Under the pieces are notes generated by a model. The model did no database searches, was not told the DNA's origin, and saw only the letters and a list, made by a program, of their open reading frames with translations. The translations under genes and the position numbers were made by a program. Below, piece after piece: positions 35,001-41,538 of a stretch of 64,000 nt of DNA (within the stretch, counting starts at the first letter, position 1; each line of letters starts with the position of its first letter). Source of the stretch: the human T2T-CHM13v2.0 reference genome, Homo sapiens; the NCBI RefSeq assembly GCF_009914755.1, contig NC_060930.1; one strand, 5' to 3'.

Positions 35001-36815
35001 AATTTCATTTTTTTAAAAACAAGAAATATTCTTTCATTCCTATCTTTATTCTTCTGTATGTCTTCATTTGCTCAATTTATGATTTTCTCTTTCTCACTGG
35101 TTATGAGCAACTTAATTTTGATTTGCCCTGGTGCAGTTTTCTTTTTGTTTCTTGTTCTTGTGCTTCATTGGGATTGTTAAATCTATGAAGTTTTAGACTT
35201 TTTCAAATTGCAAATTGAATATTGAAAAACTTTTGCCCATTAGTTTTGAATGTGTGTTTTGTCTTAGATGTTTCTTCTTCCAGGACTAAAAGTATAAGCA
35301 CATGAAGCCACTTGAATTTTTCACAAAGCTTATTGTTGCTGTCTTCGTTTCTCTGGTTTTCATTTCAGATAGTTCCTATGGCTGTTCTTTCAAGTTTACT
35401 ATCTTTACTTCTGCAATATCTAATTTCATCCAGTGCATTTTTTCATCTTATACATTGCAGTTTTCATTTCTAGAAATTTAGTTTTTGAATATTTTCCATA
35501 TCTCTATTTAAAATTTCAAGCATTACAATATATTTATAATACCAGTTTTAATATCCTTATCTATTATTTAATATCAATGTCAGTTCTGGATTGGTTTTTA
35601 TTGATTAGGCCTCATTATGATTCATATTTCACTGCTTTGTTGTAAACCTGGTAACTTTTTAATTGGATTTTAAACATTATAAATTTTATCTTGTTGGACG
35701 CTGAATATTTTTGTATTGCTACAAATATTCTAGATGTTCCAAAAATGTTAAGCTCTGTTCTACAATAAAGTTAAGTAACATAAAAACAATTGACTTTTTG
35801 TTTGTTTCTAACATGTGTTAGGTAGGACTAAAGTAATTAGGCTAGGGCTAATTATTTCCCATGATTGAGGCAAAACCACTTTGTGTACTCTACACAATGG
35901 CCTGTGACTACTGATGTTTTCAAATCTAGATAGTGGGAACAGATATTATTCCTGTCTCTGTATGATTACTGAGCTCTGTTGTCTTCATCTTTTTAGGTGT
36001 ATTTTGCTTTGTTTTGTTTTGCTGACTAGGGTAGTTTCCTTACACAAATTTCCTAATCAACGCTCAACTAAATACTCCAGATAGATCCTCTCCCAAACTC
36101 CAGAATTAGCTCTCTGCAAATATCTCTCTGAAAATGTTTCCTGTGAATCCCAGCTGTGTTATTTTCTACAGAATTTCGGGTCTGTTTTATCTTAAGCAGT
36201 TTGCTAGGCTCAGTATTAGTTTATTCTTCCTGAATTGTGACCCAAAAAGTCTCCTAAATTAATATGTTGGGGCAATTGTAGGTCTCATTTGTTTGTTTCC
36301 CATTTCTCAGGTACAAGTGTTCTTTATTGTCTGATGTGTAGTGTCTTATGAAACCTTCCTCATATGTTTTGCTTATTTTTTATTGTTTCAGGAAACAAGC
36401 TAAGTCTGGTGTTGTTTACTTTGTCTTGGTCAGAAGTGCAAGTCCAGGATGGCTTTTTAATTAGCAAATAAATTTTAGTCTGAATATTTCTTAAAAGAAT
36501 AAAAATATGCCTTGTTATCACTCTCACTCAAATATATTAACATTTGGAAATTATGAGGGTTCTTACTTATAAAGTAATGAGGACAAATGATTTTTTCCTT
36601 AGAATACTTGAAAATAATTGAAGTCTCATATCCTTGACCTAAAATAAATCACGGTGGAGCAAATAAAGAATTGGGCTATGGTCTAATGATGAAAATATTA
36701 ATATAGTTGGTCTGTATTTTCTTTTTGTCTAGTTTTCATGCTAATCTGAACCTGTGTGAGATTCCAGATCTACTTGGGACAGAGAGATTTTTTTTTTTAT
36801 ATATATACAAAGACA

Positions 36816-36821
36816 TTTATT
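36816..36821 (-). terminator. AATAAA polyadenylation signal of the transduced segment
   Basis: tttatt on plus, 17 nt from the poly(T) run at 36788-98. Confidence 0.8.
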
Positions 36822-37411
36822 ACATTATTGTTCACAATAAGGAATTGGAAATAATCGAAATATCAACAATGAAATTATTAAATAAGTAATGGTATATACA
36901 ATATATACATAAAAGATTACTAAGCTGCTTTTAAAAATAATAAAGTATCTGTTTAACACGACATGGAAAGATGATGACAATTTATTAAGCAAAAAGAGAA
37001 AGTTTCACAATAGTGTATTAATCTCATTTCTGTAAATAATTATTTTTTGTATATATATAAAAACTTTTGGAAATATAGGTACAAACATTAACTGCGGGAG
37101 TAGGAGTTACAGGAGTAGGGAGGATGGGGGCTTATACATTCTGTTTTGCGCAATTTTTTTTTAATTTTTATTTTTATTTATTTTATTTATTTATTTATTT
37201 TTTTTTATTATACTCTAAGTTTTAGGGTACATGTGCACATCGTGCAGGTTAGTTACATATGTATACATGTGCCATGCTGGTGCGCTGCACCCACTAACGT
37301 GTCATCTAGCATTATGTATATCTCCCAATGCTATCCCTCCCCCCTCCCCCGACCCCACCACAGTCCCCAGAGTGTAATATTCCCCTTCCTGTGTCCATGT
37401 GATCTCATTGT

Positions 37412-38917: not shown

Positions 38918-39084
38918 CCAAACTAAGCTTCATAAGTGAAGGAGAAATAAAATACTTTATAGACAAACAAATGCTGAGAGATTTTGTCACCACCAGGCCT
39001 GCCCTAAAAGAGCTCCTGAAGGAAGCGCTAAACATGGAAAGGAACAACCGGTACCAGCCACTGCAAAATCATGCCAAAATATAA
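38903..39084 (+). pseudogene. ORF1: L1 ORF1 C-terminal fragment
   Basis: aatttcatatcca.ccaaactaagc...catgccaaaatataa, followed by exactly the 63-nt inter-ORF spacer before ATG 39148. Confidence 0.9.
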
Positions 39085-39147
39085 AGACCATCGAGACTAG
39101 GAAGAAACTGCATCAACTAATGAGCAAAATCACCAGCTAACATCATA

Positions 39148-41538
39148 ATGACAGGATCAAATTCACACATAACAATATTAACTTTAAATATAAATGGACT
39201 AAATTCTGCAATTAAAAGACACAGACTGGCAAGTTGGATAAAGAGTCAAGACCCATCAGTGTGCTGTATTCAGGAAACCCATCTCACGTGCAGAGACACA
39301 CATAGGCTCAAAATAAAAGGATGGAGGAAGATCTACCAAGCCAATGGAAAACAAAAAAATGCAGGGGTTGCAATCCTAGTCTCTGATAAAACAGACTTTA
39401 AACCAACAAAGATCAAAAGAGACAAAGAAGGCCATTACTTAATGGTAAAGGGATCAATTCAACAAGAGGAGCTAACTATCCTAAATATTTATGCACCCAA
39501 TACAGGAGCACCCAGATTCATAAAGCAAGTCCTGAGTGACATACAAAGAGACTTAGACTCCCACACATTAATAATGGGAGACTTTAACACCCCACTGTCA
39601 ACATTAGACAGATCAACGAGACAGAAAGTCAACAAGGATACCCAGGAATTGAACTCAGCTCTGCACCAAGCAGACCTAATAGACATCTACAGAACTCTCC
39701 ACCCCAAATCAACAGAATATACATTTTTTTCAGCACCACACCACACCTATTCCAAAATTGACCACATAGTTGGAAGTAAAGCTCTCCTCAGCAAATGTAA
39801 AAGAACAGAGATTATAACAAACTATCTCTCAGACCACAGTGCAATCAAACTAGAACTCAGGATTAAGAATCTCACTCAAAGCCGCTCAACTACATGGAAA
39901 CTGAACAACCTGCTCCTGAATGACTACTGGGTACATAACGAAATGAAGGCAGAAATAAAGATGTTCTTTGAAACCAACGAGAACAAAGACACCACATACC
40001 AGAATCTCTGGGACGCATTCAAAGCAGTGTGTAGAGGGAAATTTATAGCACTAAATGCCTACAAGAGAAAGCAGGAAAGATCCAAAATTGACACCCTAAC
40101 ATCACATTTAAAAGAACTAGAAAAGCAAGAGCAAACACATTCAAAAGCTAGCAGAAGGCAAGAAATAACTAAAATCAGAGCAGAACTGAAGGAAATAGAG
40201 ACACAAAAAACCCTTCAAAAAATCAATGAATCCAGGAACTGGTTTTTTGAAAGGATCAACAAAATTGATAGACCGCTAGCAAGACTAATAAAGAAAAAAA
40301 GAGAGAAGAATCAAATAGACACAATAAAAAATGATAAAGGGGATATCACCACCGATCCCACAGAAATACAAACTACCATCAGAGAATACTACAAACACCT
40401 CTACGCAAATAAACTAGAAAATCTAGAAGAAATGGATACATTCCTCGACACATACACTCTCCCAAGACTAAACCAGGAAGAAGTTGAATCTCTGAATAGA
40501 CCAATAACAGGCTCTGAAATTGTGGCAATAATCAATAGTTTACCAACCAAAAAGAGTCCAGGACCAGATGGATTCACAGCTGAATTCTACCAGAGGTACA
40601 AGGAGGAACTGGTACCATTCCTTCTGAAACTATTCCAATCAATAGAAAAAGAGGGAATCCTCCCTAACTCATTTTATGAGGCCAGCATCATTCTGATACC
40701 AAAGCCGGGCAGAGACACAACCAAAAAAGAGAATTTTAGACCAATATCCTTGATGAACATTGATGCAAAAATCCTCAATAAAATACTGGCAAACCAAATC
40801 CAGCAGCACATCAAAAAGCTTATCCACCATGATCAAGTGGGCTTCATCCCTGGGATGCAAGGCTGGTTCAATATACGCAAATCAATAAATGTAATCCAGC
40901 ATATAAACAGAGCCAAAGACAAAAACCACATGATTATCTCAATAGATGCAGAAAAGGCCTTTGACAAAATTCAACAACCCTTCATGCTAAAAACTCTCAA
41001 TAAATTAGGTATTGATGGGACGTATTTCAAAATAATAAGAGCTATCTATGACAAACCCACAGCCAATATCATACTGAATGGGCAAAAACTGGAAGCATTC
41101 CCTTTGAAAACTGGCACAAGACAGGGATGCCCTCTCTCACCGCTCCTATTCAACATAGTGTTGGAAGTTCTGGCCAGGGCAATCAGGCAGGAGAAGGAAA
41201 TAAAGGGTATTCAATTAGGAAAAGAGGAAGTCAAATTGTCCCTGTTTGCAGACGACATGATTGTTTATCTAGAAAACCCCATCGTCTCAGCCCAAAATCT
41301 CCTTAAGCTGATAAGCAACTTCAGCAAAGTCTCAGGATACAAAATCAATGTACAAAAATCACAAGCAGTCTTATACACCAACAACAGACAAACAGAGAGC
41401 CAAATCATGAGTGAACTCCCATTCACAATTGCTTCAAAGAGAATAAAATACCTAGGAATCCAACTTACAAGGGACAGAGAGATTCTTATGCTCCTTTTAT
41501 TAGGTTGGTGCAAAAGTGATTGTGGTTTTTGCCATTGA
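39148..41538 (+). pseudogene. ORF2: L1 ORF2 N-terminal 776 aa (APE endonuclease + reverse transcriptase), open, with 20 aa read-through into flank/MADE1
   Basis: [16 protein letters not shown]..., [27 protein letters not shown] motifs intact. Diverges from L1 after LTRD. No L1 promoter present. Confidence 0.92.

What the first reader, a model, noticed from the sequence alone, without database searches (positions are those of the whole stretch)
36776..41487. Human-specific pre-Ta L1Hs combining a twin-primed 5' inversion and a ~355-bp 3' transduction inside one TSD
Seen: no TSD flanks the obvious L1 poly(A) (37154-37206). Instead gggacagagagatt occurs at both 36776-89 and 41471-84, extendable to 17 bp (...attctt/at), an endonuclease-type nick site. 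Next to the left copy are a second poly(T) (36788-98) and an AATAAA on the L1-sense strand 17 nt upstream of that tail. ACG (37298-300) and G (37215) mark pre-Ta. The TSD end 'ggga(c)' is shared with the L1 sequence at the inversion edge, the primer-template complementarity expected from twin priming. Inference: 36799-37153 is DNA copied from downstream of a source L1 elsewhere in the genome. It looks like an old L1M 3' fragment, so repeat masking would hide it as a local fossil. It acts as a barcode for the source element.
Basis: partly seen in the sequence, partly recalled or inferred. Interest (0 to 1): 0.85.

Follow-up and report, generated by a model that had tools for sequence, protein, structure and literature searches.

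The report
Inverted L1 carrying a chrX flank
A young human L1 jumping-gene copy landed on chromosome 6 with its front half flipped and 373 bases copied from chromosome X attached to its tail; this is a textbook kind of insertion, and the only unusual point is that its parent copy on chromosome X is missing from this genome.

Summary
An exact 14-bp direct repeat (36776-89 / 41471-84; 2 hits in the window, 0.01 expected) encloses four parts. They are a short terminal poly(A), 373 bp of foreign DNA, an internal patterned A-tail, and a 4.27-kb ACG-type (pre-Ta) L1 on the minus strand. The 5' 2.57 kb of that L1 is inverted.

The two L1 pieces are collinear in a natural full-length copy except for 9-10 missing bases. 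The inverted piece meets the repeat through a shared GGGA. These are the marks of twin priming.

The foreign DNA (36798-37170) has one other copy in the assembly, at chrX:53,910,010-53,910,384, with 1 mismatch and one 2-base gap in 375 columns. On chrX it lies in its native old-L1 context. Homology stops at an AATAAA-directed poly(A) site on one side and inside a SINE A-tail, at a TTTTT/AAA site, on the other. No L1 is there in this assembly, so chrX shows the empty allele of a progenitor that is polymorphic or lost.

Mechanism and combination are well known. Human specificity could not be tested. Interest is low.

The parts
36776..36789 (.). Left copy of the target-site duplication, GGGACAGAGAGATT
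   Evidence: Exact 14-mer, 2 hits in the window against 0.01 expected; sequence
36790..36797 (-). Terminal poly(A) of the retrotransposed read-through RNA, seen as T. The T run is 36788-36798, but its two ends are shared with the TSD and the donor block.
   Evidence: no counterpart at chrX, where the sequence continues as old L1
36816..36821 (-). AATAAA polyadenylation signal used by the read-through transcript, 17 nt before the tail
   Evidence: The same hexamer is at chrX, followed there by a GT/T-rich stretch just past the cleavage point.
36798..37170 (-). 3' transduced block copied from chrX:53,910,010-53,910,384. It is an ancient L1 fragment, antisense to the young L1, plus 17 nt of a SINE A-tail.
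   Evidence: 375 columns, 1 mismatch (window 36992 A, chrX G), one 2-nt T-run gap. Only 2 places in the genome.
37154..37170 (-). Donor-derived A-rich end of the block (T9 AATTTTTA on +). It is part of the Alu-like A-tail at chrX and is the expected place of the progenitor's 3' TSD.
   Evidence: chrX reads T11 AATTTTTA and then continues into the SINE body, whereas the window continues into the L1 tail
37171..37206 (-). Internal, patterned A-tail (A9 followed by TAAA-type repeats). Inferred to be the genomic tail of the progenitor L1, copied by read-through.
   Evidence: no match at chrX
37207..38902 (-). L1 3' segment in sense on the minus strand: ORF2 C-terminal part (open, 37412-38929) and 3' UTR with ACG at 37300-37298
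   Evidence: 98.5-98.6% identical to 11 other genomic L1 copies
38903..38903 (.). Inversion junction. This single base can be assigned to either segment (1-nt overlap).
38903..41474 (+). Inverted L1 5' segment: ORF1 C-terminal end, ORF2 start at 39148, endonuclease and reverse-transcriptase domains, open throughout
   Evidence: PF03372 E 1.8e-20, PF00078 E 4.9e-47; 99.3-99.4% to 5 copies
41471..41484 (.). Right copy of the TSD. Its first 4 bases, GGGA, are also L1 sequence, marking the priming microhomology. The next 3 bases, CTT (41485-41487), precede a TCTT/AT site.

Best explanation
One L1 retrotransposition event explains the whole interval 36776-41487.

1. A full-length ACG-type (pre-Ta) L1 once sat on the minus strand of chrX, inside the A-tail of an Alu-like SINE at about chrX:53,910,384 of this assembly (inferred).
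2. Its transcript ran past the L1's own poly(A) signal, through the element's genomic A-tail and 373 nt of flank. It was cleaved 17 nt after an AATAAA lying in an ancient antisense L1 (shown by the limits of homology).
3. On chr6 the L1 endonuclease nicked the plus strand at or near ...GAGATTCTT/AT. The T-ended primer annealed to the new poly(A) and started cDNA synthesis.
4. The other strand was cut 14-17 bp away. Its 3' end, ...TCCC, annealed to GGGA inside ORF2 of the same RNA and primed a second cDNA. This is twin priming.
5. Joining of the two cDNAs lost 9-10 nt and left the 5' 2.57 kb inverted.

The copy was dead on arrival: it has no 5' UTR, only the end of ORF1, and a split ORF2. The chrX progenitor is absent from this assembly, so it was polymorphic and is now either lost or still segregating.
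For: - Single event: an exact 14-bp direct repeat encloses everything. No alternative repeat flanks the internal tail.
- Transduction, copy number: the block has exactly one other copy in 3.1 Gb, whether probed with 355 bp or with its L1-proximal 90 bp (2 of 2 candidates scored each time). It differs by 1 mismatch plus a 2-nt homopolymer gap in 375 columns.
- Transduction, direction: chrX is the donor. There the ancient L1 continues uninterrupted to the left of the poly(A) site (L002 1353-1643 aligns to the L1Hs 3' part), and the SINE body continues to the right.
- Transduction, boundaries: the homology ends are those of an RNA. One end is AATAAA plus 17 nt plus a non-templated tail, with ACTTGTGTATTTCTGTAG just downstream at chrX. 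The other end lies in an A-tail at TTTTT/AAA, which matches the L1 endonuclease consensus 5'-TTTT/AA-3' quoted in PMC4859970 (passages).
- Transduction, textbook anatomy: two A tracts, with the source's 3' TSD region inside the transduced part, as described in PMC4859970.
- Internal tail: it is interrupted by T's while the terminal tail of the same age is pure. This fits a tail templated from genomic DNA (inference).
- Twin priming: a natural copy (L004) reads ACAAGGGA TGTGAAGGA CCTCTTCAAGG. The window has the first part at 41467-41474 on the plus strand and the last part at 38903-38893 on the minus strand, and TGTGAAGGA is absent.
- Youth and subfamily: both ORF2 pieces are open. ACG is shared with 10 of 11 nearest copies, and all 11 also have the G of CTTAGAG.
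Against: - No L1 is present at the chrX donor site in this assembly. The progenitor is therefore inferred, not seen.
- The left TSD copy lacks the CTT that a nick at TCTT/AT would leave. This needs 3-nt processing of the primer; such cases are listed in Table 1 of PMC4859970. Otherwise the nick was at an atypical GATT/CT site.
- The terminal tail is short, at 8-11 nt.
- The 3' segment is more diverged from its nearest copies (23-25 differences in 1697) than the 5' segment (16-19 in 2572).
- Only 40 of 4021 and 40 of 7012 candidate copies were scored, so closer relatives may exist.
- Ape orthologues could not be examined.
Confidence: 0.9

Rival explanations
1. Chimeric retrocopy by template switching. 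Reverse transcription began on the poly(A) tail of an unrelated polyadenylated chrX transcript, with no L1 ever at chrX. On reaching the A-rich SINE tail it jumped to the poly(A) tail of an L1 RNA from another locus.
For: No L1 is at the chrX site in this assembly. The switch point lies in an A-rich stretch that could pair with an L1 poly(A)-primed cDNA end.
Against: - The 36-nt tail between the L1 and the block is patterned (TAAA-type repeats), unlike a non-templated RNA tail. The terminal tail of equal age is pure.
- The break falls exactly at a consensus endonuclease site, TTTTT/AAA.
- The order L1, tail, flank, tail is the standard transduction anatomy (PMC4859970).
- A passage of PMC3024322 judges template switching unlikely for flank-carrying L1s.
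Confidence: 0.06
2. Two unrelated features: an L1 that lost or never made a TSD, inserted beside a local ancient L1 fossil. The 14-bp repeat would be chance.
For: The block is an ancient L1 fragment of a kind common everywhere.
Against: - The 14-mer is expected 0.01 times in the window.
- A fossil at 99.2-99.7% identity to a single chrX locus cannot be local.
- The fragment ends in a non-templated T run on one side. The chr6 flanks do not continue the old L1.
Confidence: 0.01
3. DNA-level duplication or gene conversion moved chrX sequence to chr6 next to an existing L1.
For: Near-identity between two chromosomes.
Against: The copy is bounded by a poly(A) addition site 17 nt after AATAAA and by an A-tail, and it lies inside the L1's TSD. 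A DNA-level event predicts none of these.
Confidence: 0.01

Closest known systems
L1 3' transduction (read-through of the weak L1 poly(A) signal to a downstream signal; described in PMC4859970, passages seen)
   Same: Two A tracts, the TSD outside both, the source-side A-rich or TSD remnant at the start of the carried flank, a unique donor locus, and an end at an AATAAA-directed site.
   Different: The progenitor L1 is not present at the donor locus in this assembly. The carried flank is itself repeat-derived (ancient antisense L1), so repeat annotation would not flag it.
Twin priming (Ostertag and Kazazian 2001). That paper could not be opened; the mechanism is described in PMC4859970 and PMC12350158.
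   Same: A 5' segment inverted relative to the 3' segment, one TSD, a small deletion (9-10 nt) at the inversion point, and 4-nt complementarity between the second primer and the L1 RNA.
   Different: Nothing of note. PMC12350158 (legend of Extended Data Fig. 5) counts twin priming together with a transduction among the canonical conformations.
Named transduction lineages AC002980, LRE3 and RP (tags printed in PMC4866827)
   Same: The carried flank serves as a lineage barcode.
   Different: None of the three tags occurs in the window at up to 3 mismatches (0 matches each). This is a different lineage, derived from chrX, with 1 known member in this assembly.
Catalogues of L1HS transductions and inversions in the human reference (RISCI, PMC3024322, passages seen)
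   Same: That pipeline reports 78 putative 3' flank transductions among truncated L1HS and 142 twin-priming events against chimpanzee, found by the same logic used here.
   Different: Whether this chr6 locus is in its tables is unknown.

Membership tests
L1 3' transduction | Two A tracts with non-L1 DNA between them, all inside one TSD | tested here: met
L1 3' transduction | The carried DNA has a near-identical second locus where it lies in native context | tested here: met
   the only other copy is on chrX, with 1 mismatch and one 2-nt gap in 375 columns. The old L1 continues to its left and the SINE body to its right.
L1 3' transduction | The block ends at a poly(A) site downstream of a poly(A) signal, with a non-templated tail | tested here: met
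   AATAAA, then 17 nt, then the tail. The tail is absent at chrX.
L1 3' transduction | A full-length source L1 lies directly upstream of the block at the donor locus | tested here: inconclusive
   no L1 there in this assembly. Homology ends at a TTTTT/AAA site in a SINE A-tail, as expected for an empty allele. Other human genomes are not held.
Twin-primed (5'-inverted) L1 insertion | 5' and 3' segments in opposite orientation, collinear in the L1 apart from a small indel | tested here: met
   the gap is TGTGAAGGA, 9-10 nt
Twin-primed (5'-inverted) L1 insertion | Complementarity between the second-strand 3' end at the TSD and the L1 RNA at the inverted segment's 3' edge | tested here: met
   GGGA is shared by the L1 and the TSD (41471-41474)
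Pre-Ta L1Hs | ACG triplet at L1 positions 5929-5931 (definition from PMC12350158 methods) | tested here: met
   the window has ACG, as do 10 of 11 nearest copies; 1 of 11 has ACA
Pre-Ta L1Hs | G at position 6015. This definition is recalled and was not seen in any call. | tested here: met
   the G of CTTAGAG is present in the window and in 11 of 11 copies. That this base is 'position 6015' rests on recall.
Pre-Ta L1Hs | Insertion absent from apes (human-specific) | not testable with these tools
   No ape genome is held. The only indirect evidence is 1 substitution in 373 bp between donor and copy and open ORF2 pieces.

The most novel reading that the evidence does not exclude
In T2T-CHM13 the chr6 element is the only trace of a pre-Ta progenitor L1 at chrX:53.91 Mb, a site where this reference carries the empty allele. 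That progenitor may still segregate in living humans. If so, it would be a source L1 missing from the reference, belonging to a subfamily of which only a few members are reported as still active (Ebert et al. preprint, passages). If it is found nowhere, the chr6 copy is the fossil record of an extinct source allele.
Probability: 0.3. Interest if true: 0.35.

Novelty: already known. Interest (0 to 1): 0.2.

Why it matters
It matters little beyond bookkeeping. The locus is a clean, fully resolved example of two standard L1 outcomes in one insertion.

It shows that a transduced flank made of old repeat DNA can still be traced to a single donor. It also pins an inferred progenitor to a base-level site on chrX that is empty in the T2T reference. 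That is useful to anyone cataloguing source L1s or genotyping this lineage.

The insertion lies in a gene desert (hub annotation) and is structurally dead, so no functional effect is expected.

Tried and rejected
- I first guessed, from recall, that the donor was the known chrX hot L1 AC002980. This was rejected: the AC002980, LRE3 and RP tags printed in PMC4866827 each give 0 matches in the window at up to 3 mismatches.
- I looked for sibling insertions with the 355-bp block and with its L1-proximal 90 bp. Only chr6 and chrX were found.
- I looked for a published Xp11 source L1. Two full-text searches listed 17 and 5 papers, and none describes one. The one L1 paper with Xp11 (PMC9038871) reads from its title and abstract start as a somatic L1 event activating FOXR2.
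- The supplement of PMC12350158, which uses CHM13 coordinates, is cut before its transduction tables. 'Xp22', 'Xp11' and 'pre-Ta' each occur 0 times, and the numeric hits were unrelated. It therefore says nothing either way.
- The Ostertag and Kazazian paper is not held.
- The private-difference counts (14 of 1697 and 13 of 2572) were not turned into an age. The comparators are only the best of 40 scored candidates, and the counts include variants inherited from the progenitor.
- A tandem-repeat explanation for the masked blocks at 51.7-57.3 kb was checked and dropped: 1 small array was found, and the region is an old L1.
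Full report
**Observation**

- GGGACAGAGAGATT occurs exactly twice in the 64-kb window, at 36776-36789 and 41471-41484. 0.01 matches were expected, and 0 of 100 shuffles reached two.
- The match extends to 17 bp only if the left TTT is equated with the right CTT (family D4).
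- After the left copy come an 11-T run (36788-36798) and, 17 nt further, TTTATT at 36816-36821. That hexamer is AATAAA on the minus strand.
- CGT at 37298-37300 and C at 37215 are the ACG and G of the L1 sense strand.
- None of the 13 direct-repeat families in 36300-42000 links the flank of the internal T-rich tract to the right flank.

**L1 anatomy**

Stop-to-stop ORFs show a 505-codon open frame on the minus strand (37412-38929) and an 804-codon open frame on the plus strand (39124-41538). The plus-strand frame carries the endonuclease domain (PF03372, E 1.8e-20) and the reverse-transcriptase domain (PF00078, E 4.9e-47).

I searched the window's own assembly with each piece.
- The plus-strand piece gave 39 other L1 copies, out of 40 scored from 7012 candidates. 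Their alignments end at query base 2571-2572, which is window 41474-41475, inside the right repeat.
- The minus-strand piece gave 39 other copies, out of 40 scored from 4021 candidates.

Local BLAST against five of these copies places 38903-41474 on the plus strand at 99.3-99.4% identity. It places 37413-38903 on the minus strand at 97.7-98.5%.

In one natural copy (L004) the sequence reads ACAAGGGA TGTGAAGGA CCTCTTCAAGG.
- The window has ACAAGGGA at the right edge of the plus-strand piece.
- It has CCTCTTCAAGG at the inner edge of the minus-strand piece.
- It lacks the nine bases between them.
- One base (38903) can be assigned to either piece.

So the two pieces come from one template. The 5' 2.57 kb is inverted, 9-10 nt are lost at the junction, and 4 nt (GGGA) are shared between the L1 and the target-site duplication. 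The review PMC4859970 (passages) lists 5' inversion with small indels at the breakpoint as an L1 hallmark and attributes it to twin priming. The complementary 3' end ...TCCC of the cut top strand pairing with GGGA in the RNA is my inference from the sequence.

**The foreign block**

A search of the whole 3.1-Gb assembly with 36799-37153 found two places: the window itself and chrX:53,910,011-53,910,365. The L1-proximal 90 bp alone gave the same two places. No sibling insertion is therefore visible in this genome.

Pairwise alignment extends the homology to window 36798-37170 and chrX 53,910,010-53,910,384. Over 375 columns there is one mismatch (window 36992 A, chrX G) and one 2-nt difference in a T run.

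At chrX the block is in native context.
- To its left the sequence continues, and L002 1353-1643 aligns across the boundary to the L1Hs 3' part at 60.7% over 321 columns (E 1.2e-12, same strand). The block is thus part of an ancient L1, sense on the plus strand and antisense to the young L1.
- To its right, T11 AATTTTTA runs into the body of an antisense Alu-like monomer.
- The window shares T9 AATTTTTA and then diverges into the L1 tail.

chrX is therefore the donor. The copied segment is bounded at one end by a poly(A) addition site: AATAAA, 17 nt, then a tail absent at chrX, where ACTTGTGTATTTCTGTAG follows. At the other end it is bounded by a point in a SINE A-tail that reads TTTTT/AAA on the primed strand. 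That matches the endonuclease consensus 5'-TTTT/AA-3' given in PMC4859970. The same review states that a 3' transduction typically shows two homopolymer stretches and carries the source's 3' TSD.

**The missing progenitor**

No L1 lies at the chrX site in this assembly. The simplest reading is that CHM13 carries the ancestral empty allele of a progenitor that was polymorphic when it fired.

The 36-nt tail between the L1 and the block (A9 followed by TAAA-type repeats) is interrupted, whereas the terminal tail of the same age is pure. This fits a tail copied from an already aged genomic tail, as read-through predicts. It argues against a jump of the reverse transcriptase from a chrX transcript onto an L1 RNA tail. 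That rival cannot be excluded without a filled chrX allele, and I give it about 6%.

**Nick site**

Taken literally, the 14-bp TSD implies a nick at GATT/CT, which is atypical. A nick at TCTT/AT followed by removal of the three primer bases CTT reproduces both junctions exactly. Table 1 of PMC4859970 lists TCTT/AT sites and cases annotated as 3' processing of 1-3 nt. This step is inferred.

**Subfamily and age**

The ACG triplet defines pre-Ta in the methods of PMC12350158. The window and 10 of 11 nearest copies have ACG, and 1 of 11 has ACA. All 12 sequences have the G of CTTAGAG; equating that base with 'position 6015' rests on recall.

The window differs from all 11 comparators at 14 of 1697 positions, and from all 5 comparators at 13 of 2572 positions. 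These counts include variants inherited from the progenitor, and the comparators may not be the closest copies.

Donor and copy differ by one substitution in 373 bp. By recalled human-chimpanzee divergence this suggests an age of roughly one to a few million years, with a very wide interval. That is compatible with the mean pre-Ta age of 2.15 Myr in the Ebert et al. preprint (passages). Human specificity itself could not be tested.

**Comparison with what is known**

- 3' transductions accompany 8.8% of polymorphic L1 insertions in PMC12350158 (466 of 5,311).
- The figure is 8% in the Ebert preprint.
- PMC10883270 quotes about 15% from Szak et al..
- PMC12350158 groups twin priming and transductions among the canonical conformations.
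- RISCI reported 78 putative transductions among truncated L1HS and 142 twin-priming events in the reference genome (PMC3024322). Its tables could not be read.
- The three named lineage tags are absent from the window.
- Two searches found no paper describing an Xp11 source L1.

**Verdict**

The block boundaries are corrected to 36798-37170, and the progenitor is shown to be absent from this assembly. The mechanism and the combination are ordinary, so interest is low.

Noticed in passing
window 32321-33987: A second, older L1 copy (95-97% identical to the young comparators) is also 5'-inverted. 32321-33035 is antisense and 33035-33987 is sense. The two parts are collinear in the comparator except for about 25 missing bases (L004-equivalent 5053-5077). 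It has the same overall orientation as the studied element, 3 kb away.
   Followed up: partly
window 41497-41558: A short palindromic element with perfect 15-nt inverted arms (TTATTAGGTTGGTGC / GCACCAACCTAATAA, pair I7) starts 10 bp after the right TSD. From recall it resembles a mariner-derived miniature element. The L1 inserted beside it, not in it.
   Followed up: no
L002 1843-1995 (chrX:53,910,353-53,910,505): The donor-side SINE is only about 120 bp, the size of an Alu monomer. It is flanked by CTGTTTTGCGCA and CTGTTTTACATA, a 12-bp duplication that differs by three transitions, two of them at the CpG-containing GCGCA. This indicates an old insertion into the ancient L1.
   Followed up: no
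window 37241: The studied L1 has G (sense CACGATG) where all 11 comparator copies have A. This private change creates a CpG in the 3' UTR. It could serve as a lineage marker if a progenitor allele is found.
   Followed up: partly
window 52486-56776: The cluster of masked blocks listed by the hub at 51.7-57.3 kb is an ancient antisense L1, about 71% identical to a young copy over 3.9 kb. It is not a tandem array: only one 58-bp array, at 51412-51469, was found.
   Followed up: yes
window 26964-27926: An L1 3' end in sense orientation, 91-93% identical to the young copies. It is an intermediate-age L1 fragment.
   Followed up: no
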